Source of the DNA: Ophelia neglecta
Taxonomy: Eukaryota
Length of the DNA: 64,000 bases
Reading direction: 5' to 3'
NCBI GenBank assembly: GCA_965285935.1
Contig: OZ260663.1
Location: 78,864,001-78,928,000, forward strand
Part shown: positions 9,001-15,000 of the stretch, piece after piece
Layout: each line of letters begins with the position of its first letter
Position numbering within the stretch: position 1 is the first letter of the stretch
Made by a program: the position numbers

Positions 9001-12000
9001 GGCCAGGTGAAGGTCGGTTTGGAACAGGCTGCATCTAATTTACGCCGCTCTTTGTCTGGAATTTTCTTCCAAATCATCATCATGGAAGATAGGTTGAATT
9101 ATCGCGTATTTAGCCCAAGTTGTAGTAATTATGGAGGCCTTAGGAGAAGATCTGATTCTGTTAACCCGCGATCATTGGACCGGTTTATACCTAACCGACG
9201 AAGCTCAGACTTAGATTCGGCCTATTTCAAGTTATGCTCCCCTCAGCGGGCCGTGTCCCAGAGCAGTTCCCCCGGGCACCCCACCCCGGGCACCCCGGTC
9301 TACCGCCGCCGGATGTCCGTCATCTCCGGGGGACGAAGTGAAGACCGGGTGCTGGTCTTCTCCCCTAGACAGCGGGACTTTAATGTCAGTGAGTAGAAAA
9401 ATAAGAAGCCTACATTGTAACCGAATCCGACCTACCTGATGTTGAATACATCGAACAAACGAATGGTTTTAATAAATGTAATTTTGGAAAGGTATGCATA
9501 AAATATACACAAAACAGGCAACTTGATTTAAAAAAATTCTCACCTAGATTTTCACTTATATTATAATATATTAGAACCCTCAGAAATACTCCAATGTAGT
9601 AAGAGCCCGTATATTATCATTCAAATTAGTATTGGGAATTCTATTTACTAATTATTAAAATAACCAAAACCGTCCCAGGTGACTGCTATGGGAGAGGCTT
9701 AAGTAAAGGTGCCATACAAAAACATAAGGTTTTTACCGTAGGTCAGGCTGGAGGGTTCACCAAGCCGACAGACAACCAGGTGTTCTCCACGCCCACTCAG
9801 CGTGGTAAGAGGGTCCTGCCCCGCTCACCCGAACGTGTCCTGGACATGCCCGAAATGAGGGACACGCTCTGTAAGTGAATCACATATTAATACATTGATC
9901 AGTAATCAAACACGTTAATAGAGAACACCTTGACTTGTGTGCTCAATGCATCTCCGACAGATGTTTCCATGCGCCATTCGGCGATACAGTTTCCTTTTCT
10001 AGGCACAAGTGCATGTACACATGCGCGCACACGAGTAACTTAAACGATGGATTATTTCTTCATATATTGCATGTTCCGAGGCAAAAGAGGTTCATTTTAT
10101 ATGTATAGGCCCTATGCGCTGATTCAGAGTGGAATCATTTCTGCACTAAAACTGGCATTAACACTGCTCTGGGGAAAGATATTGTCCTAATTTTCATGCG
10201 TATTATTAAGTAAGTGTTGACGGTTAGCAAAAAGGGAACGCACGCCTTCAGAGAGTTACTCCCAGTTGATTCATTCCCTGATAATTGTTGCCATTTTTAA
10301 TACAATTTAACTTTGTGAACATTCTCTACAGTCAGTCAGGCATTGGACTGGAGTAAAACCAATAACATCTCTGTTGCTTTGACTGGAAACGAAGTATACT
10401 CGTGGAACCACGATGTTGGCACGGTCAAGAAAGTTCCCTTTGCGGCAGACGATACTGTTGCGGTGACTGCGGTGGTTTGGGACCCCCAGGGCTACGTTCT
10501 GGCCATTGGCGACGAGGGAGGAGGCATAAAGGTAACATGTTAATATCGACATGACAAGGTAAAGGGAATGCTGGTAAATGGTATTTATGTTATAAATGTT
10601 GGAATATAAACAGGTTTATATTATGTAATACGTGTTAGAATATAAACGCGTCCTTTCTAGACCTGGGACAGCAGGAATGATGTTATAACACGACTCACAC
10701 CTGTCAATGCCGGTTGCCAGCACTGGGAGGTCATGAGTCTGACGTGGGCCCCAGATGGAAAGGTGTTCTTCAGGTGAGGTCCTATCATGTACATTGTGGT
10801 ATTTAGGATGTACATCTCTGGCATGAGTGAGGTGACTTGGGCTGTTTTTTTGTTCCGTAAAGTAACTGTAGTTAACTATAAAGTTGCCAATCATGTATAC
10901 TAATAAGTCTGTTGTCCTGGTGTGTAGTGGCCATGGCTGTGATTGTATTCAGCTGTGTGACATTCGGACTGGAGAGACCTCTGTCTTCGGCACCCTGCAA
11001 CAACAAACCGGAGTGTCTGGAGGAGCCACTGGACCGTCTGCTGGACCTTCTGGAGTGTTCGGTCTTCAGTTGTCAGCAGACGGAGTCTACCTGGCATGTG
11101 GCGGCAACCAACAAGTCAACATCTGGGATATGAGGTCTATGGAGCCCACTATCATAGCTGCCCACAGCTCCCCCGTCAAGGTGAGAGCAAAAGGGCCCAT
11201 AAGAAACGTCAGTAGCCCCTAAAGGCATATATTTACGCTAGTGAATAGGGACATTACATGTAATATAGGTCTAAAATAAGTCAATTGTGATATTAAATAG
11301 CGCAAAAAACCACTCAAACATTCAGAGAATGCATATTAATGAAACTACAATTTTACTAATAGTTATTTAAGTGTTAAAATACATAATAAGTTTGCATTGT
11401 TATGATGAATGAGTAATTTTGTGTTTCTTGGGGAGGCTTTAGCCTGGTGTCCCTGGCAATCCCGTCTCCTGGCAACTGGGGGAACAGAAGACGGACAAAT
11501 TAACGTCTGGAATACCATCACTGGAACAAAAGTTGCAAGCACTGACACAAAGTCTCAGGTACCTTTCTTCATTAATACTGATTAAGTTATTTTATCACCA
11601 TTCATCCAGCAATAATTAATGATAATTATTATTATTGTTAATATAGTCAGTAACACATTCTTTGACTCACAGGCATTACAATTTTTGACCTTTGCTGTTA
11701 CAGTGAACATATATTTACAACTTTAATTTTACCCAGATATTTAATCTAATTTGATATATCAAGCTTAAATTTGTCAACAAGGAGAAAGTTTGAAACACAA
11801 GAATTTCCAAAAAAACTATTACTGGCAGTGGTCAGTAAAAATGTGTTTAGATATTGCTGGCTGTATTTGCAATGGCTTTATAGCAGGGTTAATGGTTTTG
11901 TCCTGTTCAAATTTGTTCTACTTTATGTAATTCCATTGTTGTGGCCAATAGGTTTGCAGCATGGTGTGGTCCCCCGAGACGAGAGAGCTCGTCACCGGCC

Positions 12001-15000
12001 ATGGAGGAGAGCGTCCTAAGATCTACCTGTGGAAGTACCCCCACCTGGAGCACGTCGGTTCCCTGGCAGGTCACGACTCCAGAGTGCTGCATCTAGCTCT
12101 CAGTCCCAACAATAAAACACTAGGTAAGGTGGGAGAATCCCAATGAAAGAAACTATAAGGGAAGGTCAGAGAACAGCAACAAAACACTTGATATGTAATC
12201 CCCACCATAAAAGACTACTTAAAGTCAGAGAATCCTCACAATAAAATATGAGGTAAGGTCAGAAAACCCAACAGTAAGGTCAGAAAAACCCAACAGTAAG
12301 GTCAGAAAAACCCAACAATGAAACATAAGGTAAGGTCCAAAAAACCCAACAATAAAACATTAGGTAAAGTCGGTGAATCCCAACAATAAAAAACTAGGTA
12401 AGGTCAAAGAATCCAACAATAAGACACTTGAGAAAGGTCAGGCAAGCCTAGCAAGATCATGAAGTTCCAGAAATTATACACTAGGAAAGAACACACAGTC
12501 CCAAAAATAATAAACTAGGCACTCCCAATAAAAGTCACTAGAAAAGGTCAGGCAGTCTAAATAATAATACACTAGAAAAGGTCAGGCAGTCTAAATAATA
12601 ATACACTAGAAAAGGTCAGGCAGTTCCATTGATGATGCATTAGATGGTCTCTGCAAAAAAACACCATTCATGGAACATGTTTACTCTGTGCATGAGACTC
12701 TTTATGCTAAACATATCCAGTTTCATAGGACCAAATTCAACATTGCACAACATGCTTTACTGTTATTATACAACTTAAAGAGAAAATGTCCAATTCTCAA
12801 TAATTATACATATGTTGGAAGCAATGGGTGTACATGTATAGGATATTATTAATGAGATGATCTTTTATTTGTTAGCTTCTTGCTGTGGTGACGAATGCCT
12901 CATGATGTGGGACTGTTTTGAGGTCAACAAGACACCAAGCAGACGACGATCACAGGCGGCAAGTCTTGGCAGTCCTAAAAACTGCTCCCCTCTCATGAGA
13001 ATGATGACTCTACGGTGAAACACCTGGTTGATAACACCAAGTCGGAGGGTTATGTAATCCCTTTAACACTTATATTAAATTCTATATCATTTCTACTTAA
13101 ACAGGAAAAAAAAATGTTCAGTTGAATATCATGTATTTTTGTAAGCTACAACTTTCTAACAATTATTATGTTTACTTTGTTACTTATAATGTGACTGTTT
13201 TGTTCAGTTGGGAGAGTTGTTATTGGGGTATTGTTTTCTTTTAGTGTTATTTGTTACTATTCTTGAGCAATGTGAAGAGCACAAAGCACTTTGTTTGTTG
13301 ACATTTATACACCTAATTTTGCACCTTTGCATTTGTTGAAAATTTGACATTGGAAAGATTTGTTGACCATGATATTTTGAAAATAAAAGTTAATTTATCA
13401 AGAACTTTATTCTGGTTGTATATCAAATTTGATTAACTAAACTGGTTAAAAAATTTTATGTTACTACTCTGGTTATGGTTATTGACAATCTAAGTTTTCA
13501 AACTAGAATTAACTTGCTTTTTGATTTGTTTTTTCTTTAGTTGTTGATTATTTTCTGTTAGAAGTCAATTCTGGGGCAGCTGTGAATTTATTCTGTTTCC
13601 ATTTAATACATTACAAGTTCCACACAGAAGAATCACAATCAGTTACTTTAAATTGAGGATTCAACAAATCTTGTCAGAAAAAAATTGGGGTAATTAAAAA
13701 GGTTTTTCAGATATATTCTCCAGCCTAAAATAATTCGTAATGTATATTGCATGTCCACTGAAATTTAGTTATTTTTTCCAAACAAAACCTTTACCAGCTT
13801 GTCCATTATTCTGACTGTATCAAGCCTATTCAAGTTTGAATGCATACACTCTTGACACTAAGAATAATTACTTTCATACATCTCTTGTATATTTCTTAAC
13901 ATCATAAAGTGCTAATAAGCAACATCATTCATAACAATTTGAGGAGCTACAATATATTTTCAAGTATACATTATAATCATATCACATCAACTGAAAACCG
14001 TGCAATACTTCAGCCATCCTTATACACAATACACAGCTTTGACTTCTTTTTGAGACATTGAGCACCACTCTATTCGACTTCACATCCATTTTACTCATCA
14101 ATATTAAGTAATATTATTATTACAGATAATCACTATTTAATACTATTACTCCAATGACAAATTCAGGCTTTTCAAAGATCTCATTTAAAATATTGCAATA
14201 ACATGAACAATTGATCAGACTTTTAGCACAACTGTAATTGGCTTCGCGGCAATAAGAAGCAGTATTAAAAACGTTTCAAATGCGATGACTGAAAGTATTC
14301 CCAGCTATCCTATGAAAGGAATTCCTAGCCAGGAGCTGACTTTCATTTTCCCTAAATATCTGTAGTTATAATGAGTAGAAGTTACTTATTCATTTGGACC
14401 ATCAAAGGTAAGGAGATGTAAAGGATCTATAAAAATGAAAAAGAATAAAGAATATACAAACTTCCACACAAAATACCCTCATGCTCATTGAATTTCATTA
14501 ATGTAAAGTTTTTAATCACCTTTAATACACTCCTAACATTCAGTATAACAAGTAAAACTAGTTTTTGCAGCAGCGTGATAAACAATTCAACCGCAAACAA
14601 CATCATTTACATTGGTAACAATTTTTTAAATTGAGAAATTATGTCAATATTTCATTAAGATGGCAACAGAACACAATGGTGGATCTTCCCAGTAGCAGGG
14701 CATGCTAGGAGACCACATAACAGATCAGCTATAATTTATAAACACATTTCCTAGAGCATGTCACTAGGCAATGTCCATACCAAGTGCCTAAACCTCAAAC
14801 ACAGTCACACACATGGTCCTCATCCACTCCCACTGTGACCTAACCACAACACCGAGTCAGGCCTTGTCAGCTTTAACCACACTCGCTTTTCAGCGTTTAA
14901 TCAGCAGCATCCCGCATGATCCCTGAACCATGCACTAGGTACATCCAGTATCAAGGCTATTTCTTCGAATGGAAAAGAAAATCACCAACACTGATCACCA

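What the first reader, a model, noticed from the sequence alone, without database searches (positions are those of the whole stretch)
9082..13018. Divergent APC/C co-activator with intact APC/C-docking motifs but a remodelled KEN-box receptor
Seen: C-box DRFIPNR, KILR/MIM-like RVLVFSP and a terminal LR are kept. Positions equivalent to the acidic D-box pocket (LDMPE, GDE) are kept. The top-face KEN-receptor motifs are changed: NDYY/DDFY becomes DTLF, GGNDN becomes GGNQQ, GGGT becomes GGT, while SQV and SRV remain. There is no N-terminal KEN box and no CRY box (KRVLP). Known: those motifs bind KEN degrons, including that of BubR1/Mad3, and are near-invariant in CDC20 and CDH1. Lineage-specific activators (Cortex, Ama1, CDC20B) act in meiosis or multiciliogenesis. 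Inference: this is a specialised, possibly checkpoint-insensitive or D-box-biased activator rather than the mitotic CDC20.
Basis: partly seen in the sequence, partly recalled or inferred. Interest (0 to 1): 0.65.

Follow-up and report, generated by a model that had tools for sequence, protein, structure and literature searches.

The report
Divergent CDC20-type APC/C activator gene
This is an intact eight-exon animal gene for a strongly diverged relative of the cell-division protein CDC20 that keeps its docking motifs and one substrate pocket but has a partly altered second pocket, which is a known kind of lineage-specific variation rather than a new system.

Summary
Window 9082-13018 (+) carries an intact 8-exon gene (1440 nt, 479 codons, all 7 introns GT..AG). 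Four exons match Pfam PF24807 (CDC20/Fizzy WD40) collinearly.

The gene is CDC20-type rather than CDH1-type at 4 of 5 informative exons.

The KEN site is only partly changed:
- Of seven contact positions named for human Cdh1, four are kept. These include the Gln/Arg pair whose mutation disables the receptor.
- Three are changed: Asp to Thr, aromatic to Leu, and Asn to Gln. Two top-face loops are each one residue shorter.
- These changes are not significantly more frequent than at other family-invariant positions (Fisher p = 0.10 and 0.61).
- D-box positions are all kept.

A 61-residue fragment in public data is 74% identical and shares derived residues, so the type is not unique to this window.

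Open points:
- Whether a canonical CDC20 exists elsewhere in the genome could not be tested.

Verdict: a new member of a known kind. The "checkpoint-insensitive" reading is plausible but unproven.

The parts
9082..9388 (+). Exon 1: start codon, disordered N-terminus with 6 Ser/Thr-Pro sites, C-box DRFIPNR (9178-9198) and RVLVFSP (9346-9366)
   Evidence: No Pfam or PDB hit for the exon as a whole. The RVLVF stretch aligns to R[IV]LxF in 4 of 7 fungal references. An in-frame ATG further upstream (about 8938) cannot be excluded as the true start.
9742..9870 (+). Exon 2: KRVLP in place of the CRY-box stretch (9807-9821), LDMPE (9840-9854), and R-D-T-L (9858-9869) in place of the N-D-Y-Y top-face motif
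   Evidence: The only PDB match is human CDC20 162-183 (E 1.7). Six of 8 family-invariant columns are kept.
10332..10531 (+). Exon 3: completes the split Phe codon; covers the WD40 region that includes the Val equivalent to the D-box-receptor residue V203 of human Cdh1
   Evidence: PF24807 E 1.4e-11, profile positions 13-75. PDB hits: Slp1 8.3e-7, FZR1 5.1e-6, CDC20 1.4e-3. FZR1 V203 falls on a Val by my count of the alignment.
10661..10773 (+). Exon 4: strongly diverged part of the propeller (blades 2-3 region)
   Evidence: No CDC20-family match. It can be placed only by order against the fungal references. Three of 5 invariant columns are kept.
10928..11180 (+). Exon 5: diverged first half with a Gly/Ser/Pro-rich insertion of about 13 residues, then a WD40 blade with GGNQQ (11100-11114) in place of GGNDN and one residue fewer
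   Evidence: PF24807 E 1.3e-6, profile positions 136-181. Residues 41-68 match CDC20 310-338. Alignment. Thirteen of 21 invariant columns are kept.
11436..11558 (+). Exon 6: AWCPWQS blade, GGT (11478-11486) in place of GGGT, and the S-Q of SQV (11553-11558)
   Evidence: PF24807 E 1.8e-13. Human CDC20 4.7e-14 against FZR1 2.8e-11, with a one-residue gap. Fourteen of 14 covered invariant columns are kept.
11952..12123 (+). Exon 7: the V of SQV and SRV (12078-12086); the best-conserved blade
   Evidence: PF24807 E 3.4e-17. Human CDC20 1.4e-17 against FZR1 3.9e-16. 40 of 54 residues are identical to fragment P0152.
12876..13018 (+). Exon 8: GDE (12887-12895), a C-terminal tail ending in Leu-Arg (13010-13015), and the stop codon
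   Evidence: Four of 5 PDB hits are human CDC20 461-488 (E about 0.1). The fungal references end in IR (4 of 7), MR (2 of 7) or neither (1 of 7).

Best explanation
The locus encodes an intact, intron-rich and strongly diverged member of the CDC20 branch of the CDC20/CDH1 family of APC/C co-activators.

Shown:
- The gene structure.
- Family membership, exon by exon.
- The presence of the C-box, an R-V-L-x-F motif and a hydrophobic-Arg C-terminus.
- Retention of the D-box pocket residues.
- Retention of 4 of 7 KEN-contact residues.

Inferred:
- It docks on the APC/C through the C-box and the Leu-Arg tail.
- It presents D-box substrates through the blade 1/7 groove.
- Its KEN site still holds the Glu of a KEN degron, because Gln, Arg and Thr are kept.
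- It grips the Asn and Lys of that degron differently or more weakly. Asp is replaced by Thr, the aromatic residue by Leu, and Asn by Gln, and two loops are shorter.

This would bias it towards D-box substrates. It could also weaken capture by the KEN1 box of BubR1/Mad3.

Most likely it is a lineage-specific duplicate of CDC20 with a restricted role. Such duplicates have arisen repeatedly in eukaryotes. That it is a duplicate rather than the only CDC20 is not shown.
For: - Gene model: 8 exons, all 7 introns GT..AG, 479 codons, no internal stop.
- Pfam PF24807 hits in 4 of 8 exons, collinear with the profile.
- CDC20-type rather than CDH1-type. Exon 2's only PDB hit and 4 of 5 of exon 8's hits are human CDC20. 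Exon 6 scores 54.1 against 45.6 bits and exon 7 scores 66.1 against 61.5 bits for CDC20 against FZR1.
- D-box contact positions named for human Cdh1 are all matched: D180, D464 and E465 (passages of PMC9926468) and V203 (passages of PMC3690534). The matches are shown.
- KEN contacts N333, T377, Q401 and R445 are kept. D187, F188 and N335 are changed.
- Gene-specific divergence. By my count of the printed alignments, identity to human CDC20 is about 31% (exon 3), 54% (exon 6) and 48% (exon 7). The neighbouring SAMD1-type domain is 41 of 72 identical to human.
- Fragment P0152 is 74% identical over 54 residues. It shares derived residues such as TGHGG and PHLEHVG, so the type is conserved in at least one more sequence.
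- Co-activators other than CDC20 and CDH1 arose by independent lineage-specific duplications (passages of PMC3195147).
Against: - No canonical CDC20 was found, because nothing outside the window could be searched. It may be the only CDC20 of its genome.
- KEN-site changes are not significantly more frequent than changes at other family-invariant columns (p = 0.10 and p = 0.61). They may simply reflect general drift.
- The two residues whose mutation gives the published KEN-receptor-dead Cdh1 are intact, so KEN binding may be normal.
- Exon 3 scores higher with FZR1 (29.9 bits) and Slp1 (32.4 bits) than with human CDC20 (22.2 bits).
- The summed exon scores (about 187 bits) are below the 200-bit Pfam cut-off for a whole protein. 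The joined protein was not scored.
- There are no expression data.
- P0152 could come from a paralogue rather than from another species.
Confidence: 0.5

Rival explanations
1. It is the single, orthologous CDC20 of a lineage in which this gene evolves fast. It still acts in mitosis and is still under spindle-checkpoint control. The changed residues are tolerated or compensated drift.
For: - No second copy in the 64-kb window.
- Multi-intron structure, as expected of an original locus rather than a retrocopy.
- CDC20-type features in exons 2, 6, 7 and 8.
- Gln and Arg of the KEN site are kept.
- An R-V-L-x-F motif sits at the place of the Mad2-binding stretch.
- KEN-site changes are no more frequent than background.
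Against: - The neighbouring SAMD1-type domain is 41 of 72 identical to human, so the genome is not an extreme fast-evolver on that one control.
- Three residues that are invariant in 6 of 7 fungal references and in the printed PDB chains are changed, and two loops are shortened.
- The R-V-L-x-F motif lacks the Pro that 3 of the 4 fungal CDC20-type references have 8 or 9 residues after the Arg.
Confidence: 0.27
2. It is a CDC20-derived protein that no longer activates the APC/C, as proposed for vertebrate CDC20B. It would use its propeller for another partner, for example in centriole or cilium biology.
For: - The propeller is as diverged from CDC20 as CDC20B is, or more so. CDC20B is reported as 49% identical to CDC20 in the repeats (passages of PMC6220262).
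- Blades 2-3 are beyond recognition.
Against: - CDC20B is described as lacking the canonical APC/C-binding domains. This gene has a perfect C-box and a hydrophobic-Arg tail.
- No ORF with a cyclin or geminin domain was found among 194 ORFs of 58 residues or more outside the gene and the tandem arrays. There is therefore no sign of the MCIDAS/CCNO neighbourhood.
- No Rfam family, hence no intronic microRNA, was found at gathering score. That CDC20B hosts miR-449 is recalled, not read.
Confidence: 0.08
3. It is a young, decaying or unexpressed duplicate whose frame happens still to be open.
For: - Strong divergence in exons 4 and 5.
- A low-complexity insertion in exon 5.
- Tandem repeats in intron 7.
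Against: - All 8 exons are open and all splice sites are canonical.
- 60 of 82 covered family-invariant columns are kept, including 14 of 14 in exon 6.
- A 74%-identical relative exists in public data.
Confidence: 0.07

Closest known systems
CDC20 / Fizzy / Slp1 (canonical mitotic APC/C co-activator)
   Same: - C-box.
- R-V-L-x-F at the place of the KILR/Mad2-interaction stretch.
- The Pro-x-x-Pro-x-Arg-x-Leu-Asp-x-Pro-Glu lead-in to the propeller.
- The AWCPWQS blade.
- D-E in the last blade and W-x-C-F-E after it.
- A hydrophobic-Arg C-terminus.
- Eight Ser/Thr-Pro sites in the N-terminal two exons.
   Different: - Asp to Thr and Tyr to Leu in the N-D-Y-Y motif.
- GGNDN-L becomes GGNQQ with one residue lost.
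- GGGT becomes GGT.
- No KEN box and no CRY tripeptide.
- Blades 2-3 are unrecognisable.
- An insertion of about 13 residues in exon 5.
- Only about 31-54% identity to human CDC20 in exons 3, 6 and 7.
CDH1 / FZR1 / Fizzy-related
   Same: - The same family and propeller.
- The same KEN and D-box contact positions.
- Exon 3 scores slightly higher with FZR1 than with CDC20.
   Different: - Exons 2 and 8 find only CDC20 in the PDB.
- Exons 6 and 7 score higher with CDC20.
- The two fungal references with the AWSPH form of the blade, which I take from recall to be CDH1-type, lack R-[IV]-L-x-F.
Lineage-specific CDC20 duplicates: Drosophila Cortex, ascomycete Ama1
   Same: They are reported as independent, recent duplications of CDC20 with restricted (meiotic) roles (passages of PMC3195147). 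This is the same evolutionary pattern as proposed here.
   Different: They belong to other lineages. No sequence of either was available, so nothing could be compared. The state of their KEN-site residues is not known to me from any call.
Vertebrate CDC20B
   Same: A diverged CDC20-like propeller with a tissue-restricted role.
   Different: - CDC20B is described as lacking APC/C-binding motifs and as not binding the APC/C. This gene has the motifs.
- No MCIDAS/CCNO-type neighbours.
- No Rfam hit in the introns.

Membership tests
CDC20/CDH1 (Fizzy) family of APC/C co-activators | Seven-bladed WD40 propeller of the CDC20/Fizzy type (Pfam PF24807) | tested here: met
   Exons 3, 5, 6 and 7 hit PF24807 with E from 1.3e-6 to 3.4e-17, in profile order. 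Exon 4 and the first half of exon 5 do not match. The whole-protein cut-off of 200 bits was not tested, because the joined model was left out. The exon scores sum to about 187 bits.
CDC20/CDH1 (Fizzy) family of APC/C co-activators | C-box D-R-[FY]-I-P-x-R in the N-terminal region | tested here: met
   DRFIPNR at 9178-9198. It aligns with DRFIP of fungal references P0004 and P0005. The motif's role was read in passages of PMC3628523.
CDC20/CDH1 (Fizzy) family of APC/C co-activators | C-terminal Ile-Arg tail | tested here: inconclusive
   The protein ends in Leu-Arg (13010-13015). The fungal references end in IR (4 of 7), MR (2 of 7) or neither (1 of 7). Whether LR binds Apc3 was not tested.
CDC20/CDH1 (Fizzy) family of APC/C co-activators | D-box co-receptor residues (human Cdh1 D180, V203, D464, E465) | tested here: met
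   All 4 of 4 are matched by identical residues. The residue list comes from passages of PMC9926468 and PMC3690534.
CDC20/CDH1 (Fizzy) family of APC/C co-activators | KEN-box receptor residues (human Cdh1 D187, F188, N333, N335, T377, Q401, R445) | tested here: not met
   Four of 7 are kept (N333, T377, Q401, R445). Three are changed: D187 to T, F188 to L, N335 to Q. One-residue deletions lie next to N335 and T377. The list comes from a molecular-dynamics paper (passages).
CDC20 subfamily (as against CDH1) | Closer to CDC20 than to CDH1 in sequence | tested here: inconclusive
   Exon by exon against the PDB, CDC20 is favoured at exons 2, 6, 7 and 8 and FZR1 at exon 3. No tree was made.
CDC20 subfamily (as against CDH1) | Mad2-interaction motif around KILR | tested here: inconclusive
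   RVLVFSPRQR aligns with R[IV]LxF....P of the fungal CDC20-type references, but it has Pro at +6 only, not at +8 or +9. The consensus itself is recalled. Passages of PMC3628523 give only 'about 10 residues'.
Vertebrate CDC20B | No canonical APC/C-binding motifs; lies beside MCIDAS and CCNO | tested here: not met
   The C-box and LR tail are present. Zero of 194 ORFs of 58 residues or more outside the gene and the repeat arrays hit a cyclin or geminin family. The features were read in passages of PMC6220262. Its Supplementary Figure 2a could not be seen.
Cortex / Ama1 | Orthology to the Drosophila or ascomycete duplicate | not testable with these tools
   No sequences of these proteins were available. 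Both are reported as lineage-restricted duplications, so orthology is unlikely on general grounds.

The most novel reading that the evidence does not exclude
A conserved CDC20 paralogue acts as a natural separation-of-function form. APC/C docking and the D-box co-receptor are intact. The Asn- and Lys-binding parts of the KEN site have been rebuilt (Asp to Thr, aromatic to Leu, Asn to Gln, two shortened loops), and blades 2-3, where ABBA-type motifs bind, are replaced. The result would be that it escapes BubR1/Mad3 capture or reads a different degron. This would give a spindle-checkpoint-resistant APC/C activity in a particular cell type such as the oocyte.
Probability: 0.15. Interest if true: 0.6.

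Novelty: new member of a known kind. Interest (0 to 1): 0.35.

Why it matters
If a canonical CDC20 sits elsewhere in this genome, this gene adds one more independent case of CDC20 duplication followed by specialisation. It would be an unusual case, because it keeps APC/C docking and the D-box pocket while altering only part of the KEN site. That makes it a natural test of which KEN-site residues matter for substrate choice and for checkpoint inhibition.

If it is instead the only CDC20, it shows how much change the KEN site of an essential mitotic regulator can tolerate.

Either way it is a variation on a well-known family, not a new mechanism.

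Tried and rejected
- **Word-indexed protein search.** Exon 5 and exon 7 (longer proteins only) gave 0 hits among 82 and 16 candidates. Exon 6 gave 8 hits among 18 candidates: three named fungal, one named only 'cell division cycle 20', four unnamed. None carried an animal name, so these blanks say little about animal relatives.
- **Exhaustive HMMER search with exon 7.** There were 13249 hits at E up to 0.001. 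Nearly all of the 150 listed are long proteins matching in 6-21 stretches (generic WD40 repeat proteins). The one single-stretch hit, P0152, was specific. P0097 proved to be a generic WD40 protein.
- **Source and cluster of P0152.** It was not pursued further.
- **ESM Atlas with exon 1.** The best score was 0.75 to an unrelated DUF4797 cluster, which is uninformative.
- **Exon 1 against the PDB.** No hit.
- **RNA searches over the window.** Rfam and tRNA scans returned nothing.
- **Second CDC20-like copy in the window.** tblastn of the 8 exon peptides found only self-hits.
- **CDC20B-type neighbourhood.** None was found.
- **First MAFFT placement.** It misplaced exon 4 and the first half of exon 5 on the wrong blades. 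It was replaced by order-constrained, exon-wise placement. The one search count (55 of 78) is superseded by 60 of 82.
- **Tian et al. 2012** (human CDC20 with the BubR1 KEN box) is not held. Searches for the residue names in print found nothing usable for CDC20 itself. The human CDC20 residue numbers for the KEN site are therefore recalled, and the list used comes from human Cdh1.
- **Not determined.** The organism was not identified.

Full report
**What is there.** Reading 8800-13300 gives a plus-strand gene of eight exons: 9082-9388, 9742-9870, 10332-10531, 10661-10773, 10928-11180, 11436-11558, 11952-12123 and 12876-13018. All seven introns begin GT and end AG. The exon lengths sum to 1440 nt with consistent phases, and the frame ends at TGA 13016-13018. 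An in-frame ATG about 140 nt upstream cannot be excluded as the true start. It adds no KEN box.

The joined protein was never searched, aligned, folded or printed. There is therefore no whole-protein Pfam score, no tree and no 3-D model in this report.

**Family.** Scanned one by one against Pfam, exons 3, 5, 6 and 7 hit PF24807 (CDC20/Fizzy WD40 domain). The E-values are 1.4e-11, 1.3e-6, 1.8e-13 and 3.4e-17. The profile positions run in order: 13-75, 136-181, 182-223, 224-279. Exons 1, 2, 4 and 8 hit nothing. Profile positions 76-135 (blades 2-3) are left unmatched by exon 4 and the first half of exon 5.

Order-constrained alignment to seven fungal family members shows that these exons still fill the expected space. 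Exon 5 carries a Gly/Ser/Pro-rich insertion of about 13 residues. The protein is thus a complete but unevenly diverged propeller.

**CDC20 or CDH1.** Against PDB sequences:
- Exon 2's only hit is human CDC20 residues 162-183 (E 1.7).
- Four of exon 8's 5 hits are human CDC20 461-488 (E about 0.1).
- Exon 6 scores 54.1 bits with CDC20 and 45.6 with FZR1.
- Exon 7 scores 66.1 with CDC20 and 61.5 with FZR1.
- Exon 3 goes the other way: Slp1 32.4, FZR1 29.9, CDC20 22.2.

Four of the five informative exons therefore favour CDC20. The lead-in to the propeller (Pro-x-x-Pro-x-Arg-x-Leu-Asp-x-Pro-Glu) and the R-V-L-x-F motif also match the CDC20-type fungal references. This is a comparison of scores, not a phylogeny.

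**The motifs.** Every motif in the finding is present.
- C-box DRFIPNR (9178-9198), RVLVFSP (9346-9366) and the terminal Leu-Arg (13010-13015) can be read directly.
- The fungal references end in IR (4 of 7), MR (2 of 7) or neither (1 of 7), so a hydrophobic-Arg end other than IR occurs in the family.
- RVLVF aligns with R[IV]LxF of the four CDC20-type references. Three of those four have Pro 8 or 9 residues after the Arg. The window has Pro at +6 only.
- None of the eight exon peptides holds KEN or CRY.
- The two N-terminal exons hold eight Ser/Thr-Pro sites.

**Which residues matter.**
- Passages of PMC9926468, a molecular-dynamics study of human Cdh1, name the KEN contacts. Lys contacts N333 and N335. 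Glu contacts Q401, T377, R445 and G376. Asn contacts D187, R445 and F188.
- The same passages name D180, D464 and E465 for the D-box Arg.
- Passages of PMC3690534 give Q401A/R445L as the KEN-receptor-dead form of human Cdh1 and V203M as the D-box-receptor-dead form. I also read its section 6.
- Passages of PMC3628523 give the general layout: C-box, KILR within a Mad2-interaction motif of about 10 residues, propeller, IR tail.
- The paper on human CDC20 with the BubR1 KEN box is not held. CDC20's own residue numbers are recalled.

**Mapping.**
- *D-box site:* 4 of 4 positions are matched by the same residue. These are the D of LDMPE, the Val in exon 3, and the D-E of GDE.
- *KEN site, kept (4 of 7):* the first Asn of GGN, the Thr of GGT, the Gln of SQV and the Arg of SRV.
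- *KEN site, changed (3 of 7):* the contact Asp is Thr and the following aromatic residue is Leu. The second Asn is Gln, with one residue lost just after it (28 query residues against 29 in CDC20; alignment).
- GGGT has lost one Gly.
- The Asp kept in R-D-T-L sits one position before the contact Asp.

**Is the KEN site singled out?** I took the 84 alignment columns that are invariant in six canonical fungal references and placed each exon separately within its own column range.
- The window keeps 60 of the 82 covered columns. One of the two uncovered columns is the split Phe codon and the other is the lost Gly.
- For direct-contact columns it keeps 3 of 5, against 57 of 77 elsewhere (p = 0.61).
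- The motif set was chosen after the fact and the reference set is small and fungal.

On this test the KEN site is not shown to be more changed than the rest of the conserved core. A seventh fungal member, P0007, keeps a similar share of the invariant columns: 54 of 84, against 55 of 84 for the window in the same first alignment. Yet it has lost all the KEN-site motifs, so far more thorough loss occurs in the family.

**Is the divergence gene-specific?**
- By my count of the printed alignments, identity to human CDC20 is about 18 of 59 (exon 3), 22 of 41 (exon 6) and 27 of 56 (exon 7).
- A neighbouring ORF (37717-38712, minus strand) carries a SAMD1-type winged helix. Its Pfam E-value is 1.2e-30, and 41 of 72 residues are identical to human SAMD1.
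- That one control argues that the genome is an animal's, is not human, and is not an extreme fast-evolver. It favours acceleration of this gene in particular.
- The organism was not identified.

**Relatives elsewhere.**
- The word-indexed protein collection returned nothing for exons 5 and 7. For exon 6 it returned eight proteins, none with an animal name. Those blanks therefore say little about animal relatives.
- The exhaustive search with exon 7 was swamped by generic multi-repeat WD40 proteins. It did hold one 61-residue fragment, P0152, that is 40 of 54 identical and shares residues that differ from human CDC20, such as TGHGG and PHLEHVG.
- The divergent type therefore exists in at least one more public sequence, and the Arg of SRV is kept there.
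- The origin of P0152 could not be looked up, and I did not pursue it.

**Context.**
- tblastn of the eight exon peptides against the window finds only themselves.
- Of 194 further ORFs of 58 residues or more outside the gene and the tandem arrays, 2 hit a Pfam family at E up to 0.001: TMEM185A-like at 2-289 and SAMD1_WH. None is a cyclin or a geminin.
- Rfam and tRNA scans were empty.
- The gene therefore does not sit in a CDC20B-type neighbourhood. Unlike CDC20B as described in passages of PMC6220262, it has the APC/C-binding motifs.

**Interpretation.** Passages of PMC3195147 report that only CDC20 and CDH1 are ancestral. Cortex, Ama1 and the other extra co-activators arose by independent lineage-specific duplications. 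The trees are in additional files that I could not see.

The most economical reading is one more such CDC20 duplicate:
- It docks on the APC/C through the C-box and Leu-Arg tail.
- It uses the D-box groove.
- It has a KEN site that still binds the degron's Glu but handles its Asn and Lys differently.

That could bias it towards D-box substrates and loosen capture by BubR1/Mad3. The weaker Mad2-type motif and the unrecognisable blades 2-3 point the same way. All of this is inference.

The main rival is that this is the lineage's only CDC20, fast-evolving yet fully functional. It remains open because the rest of the genome could not be searched.

**Verdict.** This is a new member of a known kind, of moderate interest.

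Noticed in passing
window 1406-5125: A 24-bp tandem array of about 154 copies is open in several frames on both strands. Two minus-strand ORFs hit Pfam Cornifin (E 2e-11 and 2.7e-9). One frame reads as an 8-residue repeat of the RNSVLKTP type. Whether it is a repeat protein or a minisatellite is undecided.
   Followed up: partly
window 18777-21792; 28411-29820; 42867-44362: Three more long tandem arrays, with periods of 34, 44 and 54 bp and about 28-80 copies each. The window is unusually rich in minisatellites.
   Followed up: no
window 37717-38712 (-): A single long ORF carries a SAMD1-type winged-helix domain (Pfam E 1.2e-30). It is 41 of 72 identical to human SAMD1 (6lui_A) and more distantly like KAT6A. 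It was used here only as a rate control.
   Followed up: partly
window 2-289 (+): An exon-sized ORF matches Pfam Tmemb_185A (E 1.7e-6), cut by the window edge.
   Followed up: no
window 12253-12624: Intron 7 of the CDC20-like gene holds tandem repeats of 22 and 34 bp.
   Followed up: no
window 8175-8349: A run of 175 N lies about 730 bp upstream of the start codon, so part of the likely promoter is unreadable.
   Followed up: no
protein P0007: A fungal CDC20-family member, named by NCBI as from Gymnopilus junonius, has changed all the KEN-site motifs while keeping R-V-L-x-F and an IR tail. It may be an Ama1-like specialised activator.
   Followed up: no
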